24,660 nucleotides of DNA from a virus: UHGV virus genome UHGV-2140017; one strand, given 5' to 3'. The notes beneath the pieces were generated by a model. That model was not told the origin of the DNA. It searched no databases and saw only the letters and a program-made list of their open reading frames with translations. Positions 891 through 5,203 of the stretch are shown piece after piece (position 1 is the first letter of the stretch; each line of letters starts with the position of its first letter). The translations under genes and the position numbers were made by a program.

Positions 891-1391
891 TTAAATAGAT
901 GAAAAATCACCATGGTACTGCCTGGAAGCAGCTACATACGCCCTGTGCGCTTCTTCTTTAGTGTGGAAGCGACCAAGTCGAATTTTTTTCTTTGCAATAC
1001 TTATTTGCGCAATCCATTTTTTTCTATTGCGGGGGGAATCGTTGAAATAGACCCCTTTAAGTCCAGCTGCGTTATTGCTGTGTATCCGTCGATTGCGAGT
1101 GTTCTGGTTTTGTGTGCAGAGCCTGAGATTTGTAATACGGTTATTCAACTTGTCGCCATCAATATGATCAACAACAAGGGTTGACGGAATTTCACCGTAT
1201 TTCAAGACACAAATTATTCGGTGCACACGTATATTCTTTCCATTGAAGAATACCCTTAAATACCCAGTATCAGTCTTGACGCCAAGAGTGTCGCCAGGAC
1301 TTTTACTCCCAAAAGGTGACTTGCAATAAAGGATGCCCGTAGTTTCATCGTATGAAAAAAAGGTCCTAACCGTTTCAAGAGATAGATTCAT
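891..1391 (-). CDS. HNH homing endonuclease with C-terminal AP2-type DNA-binding domain
   Basis: HNH_3-type motif VDHIDGDKLNNRITNLRLCTQNQN followed by an AP2-like segment GVYFNDSPRNRKKWIAQI...GRFHTKEEAHRAY. AGGAG RBS 5-6 nt before the ATG. Gene is visibly AT-richer than its neighbours. Confidence 0.8.
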   Translation of the reverse strand: MNLSLETVRTFFSYDETTGILYCKSPFGSKSPGDTLGVKTDTGYLRVFFNGKNIRVHRIICVLKYGEIPSTLVVDHIDGDKLNNRITNLRLCTQNQNTRNRRIHSNNAAGLKGVYFNDSPRNRKKWIAQISIAKKKIRLGRFHTKEEAHRAYVAASRQYHGDFSSI

Positions 1392-1667: not shown

Positions 1668-2747
1668 CTAAGGTAAGGGATTTGGCTGTGGTGGCTGGTG
1701 CTCCAGCAAATTACGCATTTCACTGACCGTCTGTTCAAATCTCCCGGTTTCCAGTTCGACACCTAGTCCCCTTCGCCCGAGAAGAGCAGCCTGTTTGAGC
1801 GTTGAACCTGATCCAAAAAAGAAATCAGCTACAACATCACCCGGGCGGCTACTCGCTGTGATTATCTGCTCCAGCATATCCGCAGGCTTTTCACATGGGT
1901 GTTTACCTGGATAAAACTGAACAGGCTTATGAGTCCAGACGTCGGTATATGGCACTGTGACCGATACGCTGAATGGTCGCCGTAAACGGTAATACTCCTG
2001 CTGGAGTTCAGAATATTTTCTGCTCAACGATTGCCAGGTAGCGACAAGCTGGTGGTGAGGTTTTCCCAGTTCGTTGCGTGAGTGCTTATCCATGGCGATT
2101 TTTTGAAACAGAGCCTGCAACTTCAAATAATCGGCTTCATTCGGCAGTTGCCACTGGCTAAGGCCAAACCAGTGGGAAACCATATTTTTCTTACCTGTGG
2201 CTTCTGCAATCTGGGCCGACGTCACGCCAAGAGATTCCCGTGCATCACGGAAGTAAGAAATTAAAGGCGTCATGACGTGTTGCTTTAACTCATTACACTT
2301 TGCGGCATATCCATCGTCTTTGGGCCTGTATGGCCCCTGATAATGGTCGGCAAAAATGATACGCTCAGTGGCCGGGAAATAAGCGCGTAAGCTCTCCTTA
2401 TTGCAGCCGTTCCATCGCCCTGATGGCTTAGCCCAGATGATATGGTTGAGCAGGTTAAACCGCTCTCTCACCAACAGCTCAATATCCGCTGCCAGGCGGT
2501 GCCCACAGAACAGATACATGCTGCCGGCAGGTTTTAACACTCGCCAGAACTGTGCCAGACAGCTATCCAGCCAACGTAAATAGTCCTCGTCCCCCTTCCA
2601 TTGGTTATCCCAGCCGTTTGGCTTCACCTTAAAATAAGGCGGATCGGTAACAATAAGATCAATGGAGTTATCGGGTAGCGATGGGAGGTATTGCAGGCAA
2701 TCAGCATTGATTAATTCAATACTGGATATTTTTACAGTATTTTTCAT
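1668..2747 (-). CDS. Beta-class DNA methyltransferase (PF01555-like), predicted N6-adenine specific
   Basis: Motif IV DLIVTDPPY near the N-terminus and motif I DFFFGSGSTLKQAALLGRRGLGVELE near the C-terminus; IV-before-I order is the beta class and DPPY favours N6-adenine. ATG start. Confidence 0.85.
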   Translation of the reverse strand: MKNTVKISSIELINADCLQYLPSLPDNSIDLIVTDPPYFKVKPNGWDNQWKGDEDYLRWLDSCLAQFWRVLKPAGSMYLFCGHRLAADIELLVRERFNLLNHIIWAKPSGRWNGCNKESLRAYFPATERIIFADHYQGPYRPKDDGYAAKCNELKQHVMTPLISYFRDARESLGVTSAQIAEATGKKNMVSHWFGLSQWQLPNEADYLKLQALFQKIAMDKHSRNELGKPHHQLVATWQSLSRKYSELQQEYYRLRRPFSVSVTVPYTDVWTHKPVQFYPGKHPCEKPADMLEQIITASSRPGDVVADFFFGSGSTLKQAALLGRRGLGVELETGRFEQTVSEMRNLLEHQPPQPNPLP

Positions 2748-2889: not shown

Positions 2890-2911
2890 GCCCCCATTAC
2901 TGGGGGCGCTT
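2890..2911 (-). terminator. Possible weak intrinsic terminator (minus strand) overlapping the stop of the small HTH gene
   Basis: GCCCCC-AGTAAT-GGGGGC hairpin on the minus strand followed by CTTTTGCTG (short U-tract). Confidence 0.3.
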
Positions 2912-3088
2912 ATAACATCCGAACTGATAATCAGATAACCCCGCCATTACCAGCTGCGTAAGTATGAGCTGGCAGCGTTCGCGGCTCAGGTGAGTATTCT
3001 GAGCAATCTCCCCAGCCGTAGCCGGTTTGTCACTTAACTCATCAAAAACAGCCTTGGCTGTTTCCGTCATATCTTGCTGATTTAGCAT
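2897..3088 (-). CDS. Small winged-helix/HTH-like protein (~63 aa), first gene downstream of the Q1 leader
   Basis: Start chosen at internal ATG (MLNQQDMTETAK...) because GAGGT lies ~7 nt upstream; the longer 83-aa ORF has no RBS. Segment AGEIAQNTHLSRERCQLILTQLVMAGL looks like a recognition helix. Confidence 0.4.
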   Translation of the reverse strand: MLNQQDMTETAKAVFDELSDKPATAGEIAQNTHLSRERCQLILTQLVMAGLSDYQFGCYKRPQ

Positions 3089-3190
3089 GTCTTTTACCTC
3101 AAATAAGTGGTGTGACATACAGATAACTCTGGTGACGGTATCCAGCAAGAACTAATTGAAAGAGAAGAAGATTTTATCGATTTTAGCCCA

Positions 3191-3216
3191 TAAAAAAACC
3201 CGCTCGCTGGCGGGTT
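3191..3216 (-). terminator. tR'-like intrinsic terminator ending a short 6S-like leader transcript downstream of Q1
   Basis: Minus-strand CCCGC-CAGCGA-GCGGG hairpin followed by TTTTTTTAT, about 30-40 nt after the predicted start site. Confidence 0.6.
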
Positions 3217-3238
3217 AATCAACGTTGAACATACAAAG

Positions 3239-3283
3239 CCCATCGTTATAGATAAAATTACACAAAAGCGGCAACTTTGCAAG
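3239..3283 (-). promoter_or_regulatory. PR'-like late promoter with putative qut region
   Basis: Minus strand reads TTGCAA-N16-TAATTT followed by ...AACGATGGG, close to my recollection of lambda PR' (TTGACT-N17-TAAATT...AACGATGGG). Lies between Q1 stop and the terminator above. Confidence 0.5.
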
Positions 3284-3298
3284 TAACGTGTCGCTAAA

Positions 3299-4129
3299 TT
3301 ATGCGATATTTATCAAATCAGACACATTTGTCACACGTTTAAGCTGTGAGTCGGTATAACTCTCTTCCTCAAAGCATTTTGTAACAAGACTTTCATAGAA
3401 AGGTTTCCAGCTGTATCGCCAGGTTCGTTCTGGCAGACCAGGCAGCTCAGAGAGCATACCCCTGTAAGCATTTGAAGACTTAGGACGACTATAACCGCGG
3501 CCTTCACAACGTTTACACACTTTGTAGACAGGCACTCCCTGCAGCTCTGACTCTTTACGGTCCAGGGTTTTTCCCGTACCGCCACACTGGCATCGCTTGC
3601 TGATTTTCCCGGTGCCGCCACATTTGAAGCAAAGAACATGGTCAACCTCTTCCACCTGACGTTTTACTTCAAAATCCGAAGGTGACTGCCTGAGGTCTTT
3701 TGCCCATTGCGGTAATCTCATTGTGTAGTGGCTTTTTTCCACCATTGAGGTTTTTTTTATGAAGCCTGAACCAGAACACTTCCTGCAATCTACGCTGTCA
3801 GCTGCAGACGAGGCATAGTCGTTATAAGCGAACCGAGCTATTATCAGCATACACAGAGGGAACTTCTTCCCTGCTGCTTTTCTTATTGATCTAGGCGCTT
3901 TTGATTTTGCATATTCAGCCAACCAACTGACGGATGCCTTTCTGTCGTGTTCGCTGATTCCAGCTTTACCCAAAAACATTGACAGGCCTATTCCTGCCTC
4001 TGCCTGGGTCATCCCCAGTGCGGCCATTACATCTGTCACAGTGAGTTGCTCGCTGGCGGTTGCACGACCGCTATCGGAAATATGCATTCCTTTGGGCGCG
4101 AAAAATTTGGGAATTGATTCAATATTCAT
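3299..4129 (-). CDS. Q: Lambda-type antitermination protein Q (late gene regulator)
   Basis: Colinear with lambda Q from memory: N-terminal SDSGRATASEQLTVTDVMAALGM, central FAYNDYASSAADSVDCRKCSGSG, C-terminal CKRCEGRGYSRPKSSNAYR and PERTWRYSWKPFYESLVTKCFEEES. Start at ATG 4129 (MNIES) has GGAG upstream; the ORF-track start at 4147 is GTG. Confidence 0.85.
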   Translation of the reverse strand: MNIESIPKFFAPKGMHISDSGRATASEQLTVTDVMAALGMTQAEAGIGLSMFLGKAGISEHDRKASVSWLAEYAKSKAPRSIRKAAGKKFPLCMLIIARFAYNDYASSAADSVDCRKCSGSGFIKKTSMVEKSHYTMRLPQWAKDLRQSPSDFEVKRQVEEVDHVLCFKCGGTGKISKRCQCGGTGKTLDRKESELQGVPVYKVCKRCEGRGYSRPKSSNAYRGMLSELPGLPERTWRYSWKPFYESLVTKCFEEESYTDSQLKRVTNVSDLINIA

Positions 4130-4147
4130 GCTCAGTACTCCATACAC

Positions 4148-5203
4148 TCAAGCTTTTACAATGACGCCGATACCCATTACCCGATCCAGAAAACGAGCCC
4201 ACAGCTCTAACTGAGTGCCATATTTCTTTTCGAACTCTGATGTATTGGCGTGTAATTCATCGTGATGCACTCTGCACAGTGGTATCACGAAGAGATCATG
4301 GGCCTTGGTGCCAGTTCCCCCCAGACCATTCCCTATTATATGGTGTGGATCGTCTGATGGTTGCCTGCAGCATTCACATGGCTGAGTTTTAACCCAACGA
4401 GTGTAAACTTCGCAGGTCCAGCGCCGGCGCTTTGGGCGGCGCATAAATGATTCGGGGCTGTTCGGATCGACACTAAGCCTCAGAATGGGTTCACTTTCAA
4501 TCTGAGGTTGCTCAATGAGTACGCTGGCGTCCGCCAGGTCTATGCCCTCAACAAGATCCTGAAGGATTTCACCTGCAGCAAATGACGGGACAATATCGCT
4601 ATCCTTATAAACGGACAGGAAAGGTTCATCAGGCAGTCTTAAGGCCTGTTGCGCCATCGTCTCGGTTATTGCGTCAGCAATGCCGGATTTCACAGCCCAC
4701 CAGCAGAGCTCCGCCATCGATAATTCGCGCTCCTTATTGTATCCAAGGCTGATCAGCACCCTTTCAATCACCCACTGAACCAGATTCTGATAAGCCAGCT
4801 CTGACAACATTTCGGTGGTCTGCTCACGTAATTCATTATCACAATGCCAGCAGACAACCATGGCGCCAGGCGGATGCCGCATAGTCACTAATTCATGGTG
4901 GTGATAGTGGGAATGCGGGTACTGGCACTCTCTGACATGTCGTAGAAGCCAGGCCTCAAGAGCGTTAATTCCACCAGCTGCGTTAATAACCCTCTCATCC
5001 CTCATGAAAAAACGCAGAATGTCCATTTCTGCAAGGGGCTGACGTGCATCGGCGATCCGCCCAGTGGGCAGTGTTTTCATCTTCTCTGGCTGACGCTCTA
5101 TCAGGACACGGCCGCCGGTAAAGAGAGACATCAATTCGCGGCCTGGTTTGAAAAGAACAACGCCCAGGCGCGGCACAATTTCCGGAGTAAGCAATGCTCG
5201 CAC
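4148..5203 (-). CDS. DUF968-family prophage protein (HNH-like zinc-binding C-terminus)
   Basis: C-terminal WVKTQPCECCRQPSDDPHHIIGNGLGGTGTKAHDLFVIPLCRVHHDELH matches my recollection of DUF968 proteins (YdfU-like). GTG start with a G-rich RBS. Confidence 0.55.
   Translation of the reverse strand: MRALLTPEIVPRLGVVLFKPGRELMSLFTGGRVLIERQPEKMKTLPTGRIADARQPLAEMDILRFFMRDERVINAAGGINALEAWLLRHVRECQYPHSHYHHHELVTMRHPPGAMVVCWHCDNELREQTTEMLSELAYQNLVQWVIERVLISLGYNKERELSMAELCWWAVKSGIADAITETMAQQALRLPDEPFLSVYKDSDIVPSFAAGEILQDLVEGIDLADASVLIEQPQIESEPILRLSVDPNSPESFMRRPKRRRWTCEVYTRWVKTQPCECCRQPSDDPHHIIGNGLGGTGTKAHDLFVIPLCRVHHDELHANTSEFEKKYGTQLELWARFLDRVMGIGVIVKA

What the first reader, a model, noticed from the sequence alone, without database searches (positions are those of the whole stretch)
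3530..3745. Lambda-type Q carrying a ~65-aa insertion with extra CxxC-GGTGK zinc knuckles
Alignment by eye with lambda Q is colinear at both ends, but between the first and last zinc-binding motifs this protein has an extra segment (...HVLCFKCGGTGKISKRCQCGGTGKTLD...) with two further CxxCGGTGK knuckles. An added metal-binding module in the DNA/RNAP-contacting part of Q could change qut specificity or regulation.
Basis: partly seen in the sequence, partly recalled or inferred. Interest (0 to 1): 0.4.

Follow-up and report, generated by a model that had tools for sequence, protein, structure and literature searches.

The report
Ordinary long-form lambda-family Q antiterminator
The extra cysteine-rich segment is real, but it is the standard second zinc-binding module of the common "long" form of lambda-family Q antiterminators (phage phi80 Q, E. 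coli prophage YdfT/QuuQ), so the finding is ordinary.

Summary
Window 3299..4129 (-) encodes an intact 276-aa Q antiterminator of the Qlambda family (Pfam PF03589).

The segment is not special to this protein. All 91 long-form Qs aligned have the same four cysteine knuckles, with all eight Cys conserved. They include phi80 Q (gp17), ES18 gp73, SfV Q, mEp237 and mEp010. About half of a 60-row sample of the 250 phage records with a family Q show the long form. The SfV/YdfT-type long Q occurs in 2,471 of 5,426 complete E. coli genomes. The PHROG family profile is itself 253 positions long.

The truly extra parts are knuckle 1 (CRKCSGSG), a 44-residue beta-hairpin and knuckle 2 (CFKCGGTG). CQCGGTGK is a CxC and aligns with lambda's own first knuckle.

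A lambda-like late cassette follows the gene: promoter, candidate Q-binding site in the spacer, AACGAT pause element and terminator. Natural swaps show the hairpin tip assorts independently of the promoter-spacer sequence, which argues against a role in qut specificity.

By position, the module sits beside residues that in lambda Q contact the RNA polymerase beta' zinc-binding domain. Its function is untested.

The parts
3299..4129 (-). Q antiterminator gene, 276 aa plus stop. The true start is ATG at 4129 (MNIESIPKF...), with GGAG 8 nt upstream. The mechanical ORF start GTG at 4147 is not used.
   Evidence: PF03589 152.9 bits. phrog_127 E 2.4e-95. lambda Q 7ubm_Q E 3e-43, aligned from residue 1.
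3995..4129 (-). Residues 1-45, the counterpart of the lambda Q N-terminal segment that refolds into the RNA-exit-channel 'torus/nozzle'.
   Evidence: Alignment to lambda Q 1-45 with invariant G39. Role of lambda residues 1-44 from PMC9388147.
3602..3793 (-). Segment absent from lambda/P22/HK97 Q (residues 113-176): knuckle 1, beta-hairpin and knuckle 2.
   Evidence: MAFFT alignments A1 and A3.
3764..3787 (-). Knuckle 1, C115-R-K-C118-S-G-S-G (CxxCxGxG).
   Evidence: C115, C118 and G120 invariant in 84 homologs.
3632..3763 (-). Residues 123-166, a predicted long beta-hairpin (strands 123-135 and 154-166). The tip carries LPQWAK...SPSDFE, which resembles phi80 PPYWSK...RPSDWE.
   Evidence: AlphaFold2 model, mean pLDDT 84.4, this region 80-89. 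phi80 alignment. Linker length varies 17-53 residues across the family.
3608..3631 (-). Knuckle 2, C167-F-K-C170-G-G-T-G.
   Evidence: C167, C170 and G172 invariant.
3572..3592 (-). Knuckle 3, C180-Q-C182-G-G-T-G (CxC). It is the counterpart of lambda Q C118/C121.
   Evidence: CxC in 66 and CxxC in 25 of 91 long-form Qs. Always 9 residues after knuckle 2.
3494..3517 (-). Knuckle 4, C205-K-R-C208-E-G-R-G, the counterpart of lambda Q C144/C147.
   Evidence: Invariant C205 and C208. The knuckle 3 to 4 spacing is 22 residues, as in lambda.
3277..3282 (-). Predicted PR'-like -35 hexamer TTGCAA.
   Evidence: Read from sequence. Same layout as lambda, SfV, phi80 (annotated pR') and close homologs. 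The generic promoter scan did not call it.
3261..3276 (-). Promoter spacer aGTTGCCGCTTTTGTG, the candidate Q-binding element. GTTGCCG lies at 3269..3275.
   Evidence: GTTGCCG(C/T)TTTT is conserved at the same place downstream of Q genes P0005 (76% identical) and P0049 (about 50%), and differs in lambda, SfV, phi80 and P0036. phi80 has its Q site annotated at the equivalent position.
3255..3260 (-). Predicted -10 hexamer TAATTT.
3242..3247 (-). -10-like sigma-dependent pause element AACGAT, followed by GGG. Identical to the lambda PR' element and the probable transcript start region.
   Evidence: Same AACGATGGG in lambda, P22, HK97, SfV and homolog loci; AACGCTGGG in phi80.
3190..3216 (-). Intrinsic terminator (tR'-like): stem AACCCGC...GCGGGTT plus a T7 run, about 57 nt after the pause element.
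   Evidence: Terminator scan. Near-identical terminator after SfV Q, annotated there.

Best explanation
SHOWN:
- The gene is an intact long-form member of the Qlambda family, the phi80-Q type, in a Klebsiella-type lambdoid prophage.
- It keeps every part of lambda Q: the N-terminal nozzle-forming segment, the helical HTH body, the lambda-type zinc ribbon (knuckles 3 and 4) and the invariant C-terminal Thr.
- Directly downstream is a lambda-like late cassette: -35, candidate QBE in the spacer, -10, AACGAT pause element and terminator.
- The 64 'extra' residues are a family-wide module of knuckle 1, a variable beta-hairpin and knuckle 2.

INFERRED:
- Knuckles 1 and 2 sit at the base of the hairpin and bind a second Zn, forming a second zinc ribbon in tandem with the lambda-type one.
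- The protein works as lambda Q does. It binds the QBE with body and arm, captures sigma70-RNAP paused at AACGAT, loads, and lets RNAP read through the terminator at 3216..3190 into the late genes.
- The extra ribbon is an accessory module placed next to the surface that in lambda Q touches the RNAP beta' zinc-binding domain. The flanking contact residues SAA (108-110), R179 and GTGK (184-187) are conserved; lambda H122 is Gly here.
- The module most likely stabilises the arm or adds a generic contact to RNAP or the DNA backbone. It probably does not read QBE bases.
For: Identity and fold:
- PF03589 at 152.9 bits against a 26.7 cutoff.
- phrog_127 matched full length to a 253-position profile.
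- lambda Q colinear at both ends.

Module is family-wide:
- Eight Cys invariant in 84 homologs.
- 91 of 91 long forms share the knuckle 2-3 spacing of 9 residues and the knuckle 3-4 spacing of 22 (23 in one), with a knuckle 1-2 linker of 17-53.
- phi80 gp17 (269 aa) has the same four knuckles and a similar hairpin tip. So do ES18, SfV, mEp237, mEp010, Erwinia, Proteus and Klebsiella phages.
- 31 of 60 evenly sampled phage hits are long. The SfV/ydfT type is in 2,471 of 5,426 E. coli genomes. The best 120 of 315 profile hits are all 254-281 aa.

Cassette: and the phi80 annotation.

Position relative to lambda contacts: the lambda zinc ribbon residues 110-112, 117 and 122-126 contact beta' ZBD, and arm tip 133-137 contacts sigma R4 (PMC9388147). 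The insertion falls between lambda residues 114 and 115, within that stretch of contact residues.

Against a QBE-specificity role for the hairpin:
- Window and P0036 share the hairpin (75% over residues 123-166; 93% over 136-150) but have 44-49% identical flanks and unrelated promoter spacers.
- Window and P0049 share the GTTGCCG spacer motif but only 25% of the hairpin.
- P0036 and mEp237 are 78-91% nt identical with the same spacer, but have a replaced hairpin tip.
Against: - No coordinates of the model were available, so the Cys pairing (1+2 / 3+4) is inferred only from the predicted hairpin and the alignment to lambda.
- Zinc content is not measured.
- No experiment or solved structure of any long-form Q was found; the PDB holds only lambda Q for this family.
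- The RNAP-facing role rests on position alone.
- The knuckles, as opposed to the hairpin tip, are invariant, so the natural-swap argument says nothing about them. They could still contribute to DNA binding.
- The promoter was not called by the generic sigma70 scan.
- Guo & Roberts 2004 on phi80 Q could not be read.
Confidence: 0.85

Rival explanations
1. One reading: the added zinc module is a specificity device that changes which qut/QBE site, or which regulation, this Q responds to.
For: The module lies in the Q arm, which in lambda contacts QBE positions 11-13 through residues near the Zn ligands. The promoter spacer here differs from those of lambda, SfV and phi80.
Against: Hairpin type and spacer sequence assort independently in natural variants. 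Knuckles 1 and 2 are invariant across Qs with many different spacers, so they cannot by themselves encode differences. Short-form Qs of lambda and P22 likewise have their own spacers without the module.
Confidence: 0.12
2. The four CxxCxGxG motifs form a DnaJ-type cysteine-rich domain with nested zinc centres (knuckles 1+4 and 2+3). It would act as a protein-binding or chaperone-like domain, as the 'molecular chaperone' names of some homologs suggest.
For: PF00684 DnaJ_CXXCXGXG matches residues 167-214 at E 1.7e-6. TIGR02349 DnaJ gives a weak hit. Homologs P0074 and P0078 are named 'molecular chaperone'. Small phage 'DnaJ cysteine-rich' proteins appear among weak BFVD matches. HMMER also aligns lambda's first knuckle to knuckle 1, which fits a 1+4 pairing.
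Against: PF00684 scores 28.7 bits, below its 32.7 cutoff, and there is no J domain. Knuckle 3 is CxC. The knuckle 1-2 segment is itself a predicted hairpin that brings knuckles 1 and 2 together. Knuckles 3+4 with 22-residue spacing equal the solved lambda ribbon. The whole protein is a Q.
Confidence: 0.1
3. It is not an insertion at all. The four-knuckle form is ancestral, and the lambda/P22/HK97 lineage lost knuckle 1, the hairpin and knuckle 2, for example by recombination between the repeated CxxCxGxG-coding motifs.
For: The short forms aligned here (lambda, P22, HK97) are almost identical to one another, and all sampled short hits are 615-618 nt. Long forms span 35-96% identity and many genera: Escherichia, Salmonella, Klebsiella, Erwinia, Yersinia, Serratia, Photorhabdus, Xenorhabdus, Proteus and Morganella. 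lambda's single first knuckle aligns equally with knuckle 1 or knuckle 3.
Against: No outgroup was available, so one gain and one loss are equally parsimonious on an unrooted tree. Only Enterobacterales sequences were recovered.
Confidence: 0.5

Closest known systems
Phage phi80 Q (gp17, AFV29194.1, JX871397 41137-41946)
   Same: Long form, 269 aa. Same four knuckles, including CxC at knuckle 3. Long hairpin with a similar tip (PPYWSK...RPSDWE against LPQWAK...SPSDFE). Same compact downstream cassette, TTGCAT-N17-TAGATT-N7-AACGCTGGG-terminator, with an annotated Q site just after the -35.
   Different: Only 42% identical overall. The promoter spacer differs (TCGCGGA... against GTTGCCG...). The window protein has a 9-residue C-terminal tail.
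Lambda Q (PDB 7UBM/7UBN/7UBJ/7UBL/4MO1)
   Same: Same family and fold. N-terminal nozzle segment, HTH body, zinc ribbon with 22-residue spacing, and AACGAT pause element downstream.
   Different: Lambda lacks residues equivalent to 113-176 (knuckle 1, hairpin, knuckle 2). It has CxxC at its first knuckle. Its PR'-to-tR' transcript is longer.
SfV Q / E. coli prophage YdfT (QuuQ of Qin; the synonymy is from my own knowledge)
   Same: Four-knuckle long form. The initial transcribed region and terminator are almost identical to the window's. A DUF968/HNH gene lies upstream.
   Different: About 37% identical. The hairpin is shorter by about 17 residues. Knuckle 3 is CxxC. The promoter spacer differs.
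Klebsiella phage Kp4866-6 (OK490421, unannotated)
   Same: 98.6% nt and 99.6% aa identical, effectively the same gene.
   Different: None of note. The record carries no annotation.
DnaJ cysteine-rich domain (PF00684)
   Same: Repeated CxxCxGxG knuckles, four per protein.
   Different: Below the Pfam threshold, no J domain, one CxC knuckle, and different spacing with a probable tandem rather than nested arrangement.

Membership tests
Qlambda family (Pfam PF03589) | Sequence match to the family model above the curated threshold | tested here: met
   152.9 bits against a 26.7 cutoff, E 2.7e-45. phrog_127 E 2.4e-95.
Qlambda family (Pfam PF03589) | Colinear with lambda Q, including the N-terminal segment that forms the RNA-exit-channel torus | tested here: met
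   Residues 1-122 align to lambda 1-125 and 179-267 to lambda 117-206. G39 and T267 are invariant.
Qlambda family (Pfam PF03589) | Cys4 zinc ribbon 'arm' (lambda C118, C121, C144, C147) | tested here: met
   C180, C182, C205 and C208 align to the lambda ligands with the same 22-residue spacing. The first knuckle is CxC here. Zn binding itself was not tested.
Qlambda family (Pfam PF03589) | Fold: helical body with HTH plus arm | tested here: met
   [not shown]
Qlambda family (Pfam PF03589) | Q-dependent cassette: Q gene followed by PR', QBE, sigma-dependent pause element, terminator and late genes | tested here: met
   TTGCAA-N16-TAATTT-N7-AACGATGGG, then the terminator at 3216..3190. This is a sequence prediction only.
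Qlambda family (Pfam PF03589) | Antitermination and antipausing activity, NusA-assisted loading | not testable with these tools
   Needs a reporter or in vitro transcription assay.
Long-form (phi80 / YdfT-type) Qlambda subfamily | Four knuckles with fixed knuckle 2-3 spacing (9) and knuckle 3-4 spacing (22), and a variable knuckle 1-2 hairpin | tested here: met
   The window has 48 / 9 / 22. All 91 long forms have 17-53 / 9 / 22 (23 in one). phi80 Q aligns throughout.
DnaJ cysteine-rich domain (PF00684) | Match above the Pfam gathering score | tested here: not met
   28.7 bits against a 32.7 cutoff.
DnaJ cysteine-rich domain (PF00684) | Four canonical CxxCxGxG repeats | tested here: inconclusive
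   Three are canonical (knuckles 1, 2, 4). Knuckle 3 is CxCGGTG.
DnaJ cysteine-rich domain (PF00684) | Nested zinc centres (motifs 1+4 and 2+3) | not testable with these tools
The secondary structure suggests 1+2 / 3+4.
DnaJ/Hsp40 chaperone | J domain and C-terminal substrate-binding domains | tested here: not met
   No such Pfam or NCBIfam hits. TIGR02349 scores 23 bits against a 377 cutoff.

The most novel reading that the evidence does not exclude
The knuckle 1-hairpin-knuckle 2 zinc ribbon of long-form Qlambda-family proteins could be an exchangeable adaptor. It would contact a host component at the loading complex (RNAP beta' zinc-binding domain, NusA or sigma R4) and tune Q loading. Its hairpin tip would be shuffled between Q genes independently of QBE specificity. 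No structure or experiment found here describes it, although it is present in about half of the phage family members sampled.
Probability: 0.25. Interest if true: 0.4.

Novelty: already known. Interest (0 to 1): 0.12.

Why it matters
For this window it matters little. The gene is a routine late-gene antiterminator, effectively identical to one in a deposited Klebsiella phage, with the architecture of phi80 Q and E. coli YdfT.

There is a modest general point. All solved Qlambda-family structures are of the short lambda form, while the second zinc ribbon carried by the long-form members has no solved structure. It lies next to the surface that in lambda Q contacts the RNAP beta' zinc-binding domain. 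A structure of a long-form loading complex would show whether it adds an RNAP or DNA contact.

Tried and rejected
- Megablast of the Q gene against complete E. coli genomes gave no match. The census was done with the SfV-type long Q instead.
- The papers by Guo & Roberts 2004 (phi80 Q) and Vorobiev 2014 are not held. Literature searches for QuuQ and for Q plus DnaJ or zinc finger gave nothing relevant.
- A first regex count of knuckle spacing was confounded by CxCC motifs. It was redone on alignment columns.
- The module-only search (residues 111-190) of 1.84 billion representatives gave 16 hits. Most lie at position ~112-190 of Q-length proteins or in short proteins that look like fragments. 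Three are longer proteins (334-881 aa) matched only as short repeated stretches. So no clear second protein context was found.
- A CII-type TTGC-N6-TTGC site (a paQ-like antisense promoter) was sought in the Q gene and not found. The 3 window matches are at chance level.
- The profile search meant to see distant or short forms listed only long forms among its best 120, so it did not resolve whether the long or the short form is ancestral.
- A chaperone (DnaJ) identity was rejected.

Full report
**1. What is there**

The finding lies in a minus-strand ORF, window 3299..4147. Homology fixes the start at ATG 4129 (MNIESIPKF...; GGAG 8 nt upstream), giving 276 aa.

- The protein matches Pfam PF03589 (Antiterm, the Qlambda family) at 152.9 bits against a cutoff of 26.7.
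- It matches the DnaJ CXXCXGXG model at 28.7 bits, below the 32.7 cutoff.
- It matches PHROG 127 'anti-termination protein Q-like' over its full length, residues 1-268 to profile positions 1-252 of 253.
- NCBIfam gives nothing above threshold.

Against PDB sequences the only real hits are lambda Q chains. For 7ubm_Q (E 3e-43), residues 1-122 align to lambda 1-125 and residues 179-267 to lambda 117-206. The protein is therefore colinear with lambda Q at both ends. A three-way MAFFT alignment puts 64 residues (113-176, nt 3602..3793) opposite a gap in lambda.

**2. Corrections to the observation**

The protein has four knuckles:

| Knuckle | Residues and sequence |
|---|---|
| 1 | C115RKC118SGSG |
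| 2 | C167FKC170GGTG |
| 3 | C180QC182GGTG |
| 4 | C205KRC208EGRG |

- Knuckle 3 is CxC, not CxxC.
- By alignment, knuckles 3 and 4 are the counterparts of lambda's C118/C121 and C144/C147, with the same 22-residue spacing.
- The added parts are therefore knuckle 1, a 44-residue linker and knuckle 2. Knuckle 1 lies outside the coordinates given.
- The shared GGTGK of knuckles 2 and 3 shows in the DNA as a 19-nt direct repeat, 84% identical, 36 nt apart.

**3. Is it unusual? No**

*Known phages.* The same architecture is present in every long-form relative examined: phi80 Q (gp17, 269 aa), ES18 gp73, SfV Q, mEp237, mEp010, Erwinia phage 59, Proteus phage Brookers and Klebsiella phage ST405-OXA48phi1.3.

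*Database homologs.*
- In 84 homologs (39-96% identity) all eight Cys are invariant, among only 19 invariant columns.
- Over 91 long forms, knuckles 1, 2 and 4 are always CxxC. Knuckle 3 is CxC in 66 and CxxC in 25.
- The knuckle 2-3 spacing is always 9 residues and the knuckle 3-4 spacing is 22 (23 in one).
- Only the knuckle 1-2 linker varies, from 17 to 53 residues; it is 48 here.

*Frequency.*
- A tblastn of phage genomes found 250 records. In an evenly spaced sample of 60, 31 are long (717-849 nt) and 28 are the 615-618-nt lambda/P22/HK97 type.
- The SfV-type long Q, annotated ydfT, occurs in 2,471 of 5,426 complete E. coli genomes.
- A profile search returned 315 proteins, and the best 120 are all 254-281 aa.
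- The gene itself is 98.6% nt and 99.6% aa identical to one in Klebsiella phage Kp4866-6.

Whether the long form gained the module or the lambda lineage lost it cannot be decided here, because no outgroup was available. The short forms aligned here are one tight group and the long forms are diverse.

**4. Structure**

An AlphaFold2 model built on the 84-sequence alignment has mean pLDDT 84.4.

- It predicts the helical body and a long beta-hairpin (strands 123-135 and 154-166) between knuckles 1 and 2. Short strands flank each knuckle.
- Foldseek against the PDB gives only lambda Q below E 1e-3 (7ubn_Q TMt 0.76; 7ubm_Q 0.81).

Because the two hairpin strands pair, knuckles 1 and 2 should meet at its base. 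I infer a second zinc ribbon (1+2) in tandem with the lambda-type ribbon (3+4). The DnaJ-like nested alternative (1+4, 2+3) cannot be excluded without coordinates.

**5. Context and probable mechanism**

Directly after the stop codon the minus strand reads TTGCAA-aGTTGCCGCTTTTGTG-TAATTT-tatctat-AACGATGGG. An intrinsic terminator follows (stem 3216..3197 plus T7).

- Lambda, P22, HK97, SfV and phi80 have the same layout. The phi80 record annotates its pR' and Q site there.
- AACGATGGG is identical to lambda's sigma-dependent pause element.
- The spacer motif GTTGCCG(C/T)TTTT recurs downstream of Q genes P0005 (76% identical) and P0049 (about 50%). It is absent from the others, as expected for a cognate Q-binding element.

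This is the canonical Q cassette described in PMC9388147. In lambda Q the arm (residues 114-152) is the zinc ribbon.

- Residues near the Zn ligands contact QBE positions 11-13.
- The arm tip (133-137) contacts sigma R4.
- Residues 110-112, 117 and 122-126 contact the RNAP beta' zinc-binding domain.

The extra module enters between lambda residues 114 and 115, inside that last surface. The flanking contact residues are conserved here: S108-A109-A110, R179 and G184-T-G-K187 (lambda H122 is Gly). By inference, the module is an accessory placed beside the RNAP-facing side of the arm.

**6. Does it set qut specificity?**

Natural variants argue against this for the hairpin.

| Comparison | Hairpin | Rest of protein or gene | Promoter spacer |
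|---|---|---|---|
| Window vs P0036-type | 75% identical over 123-166; 93% over 136-150 | Flanks 44-49% identical | Unrelated (tttcccgaatctgtg) |
| Window vs P0049 | 25% identical | Flanks 53-58% identical | Same GTTGCCG motif |
| P0036 vs mEp237 | Tip replaced (24-42% nt over residues 136-165) | 78-91% nt identical along the gene | Same spacer |

The hairpin tip is thus a cassette that assorts independently of the presumed QBE. The invariant knuckles cannot encode differences between Qs. A search with the module alone (residues 111-190) found 16 representative clusters. Most are Q-length proteins matched at the same position, or short proteins that look like fragments. Three are longer proteins matched only as short repeated stretches.

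**7. Verdict**

The feature is real, well conserved and almost certainly functional as a second zinc site. It is nonetheless the normal architecture of a large, long-known branch of the Qlambda family, and the window's gene is already in GenBank. Residual interest lies only in the long-form module having no solved structure; the PDB holds only lambda Q for this family.

Interest 0.12; novelty: already known.

Noticed in passing
L013:1501-2313 vs L004:401-1228; window 3632..3763: The hairpin tip is swapped as a cassette inside Q genes. The P0036 gene and mEp237 Q are 78-91% nt identical except for codons ~121-165 (24-69%). The window's tip (KSHYTMRLPQWAKDL...) is 93% aa and 76% nt identical to P0036, although the rest of the proteins is far more divergent (20-73% per 15-residue block).
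   Followed up: partly
window 3190..3247 (-) vs L003 (SfV) downstream of Q: The initial transcribed region and terminator are almost identical to SfV's (AACGATGGGCTTTGTATGT...AACCCGCC..GAGCGGGTTTTTTT), and the next ORF start is similar. Yet the Q proteins are ~37% identical and the promoter spacers differ. A mosaic joint appears to lie at about the -10.
   Followed up: partly
L013, L004, L005: the 40 nt between the Q stop codon and the -35: mEp237-type loci carry a stem-loop with compensatory changes just upstream of the late promoter (AGCTTACG..CGTGAGCT / AGCCTGCG..GCGGGCT / AGCTCA..TGAGCT). It is absent from the window and its function is unknown.
   Followed up: no
window 3302..3328 (-), residues 268-276: A clade-specific 9-residue C-terminal tail (NVSDLINIA) follows the family-invariant Thr267. 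In lambda the C-terminus refolds against the RNAP flap-tip helix and the torus. The tail has low pLDDT.
   Followed up: no
window 2897..3148 (-), 2890..2907 (-), 1668..2747 (-), 891..1391 (-): Several features lie between the terminator and the rest of the late region: an 83-aa ORF with a weak, below-cutoff winged-helix match, a second intrinsic terminator, an N6/N4 DNA methylase and an HNH-AP2 endonuclease. They look like moron-type genes under Q control.
   Followed up: no
window 4148..5203 (-): A DUF968 protein (with a weak, below-cutoff HNH-nuclease match) ends immediately before Q. The same neighbour precedes Q in SfV (annotated HNH endonuclease there) and in the P0005 and P0049 loci.
   Followed up: no
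proteins P0074, P0078, P0125, P0071, P0070: Some long-form Qs are named 'molecular chaperone' in public records, probably because of the DnaJ-like motif. P0071 (320 aa, 'phage endolysin') and P0070 (373 aa) look like fusions of a Q part with another domain.
   Followed up: no
[not shown]
   Followed up: no
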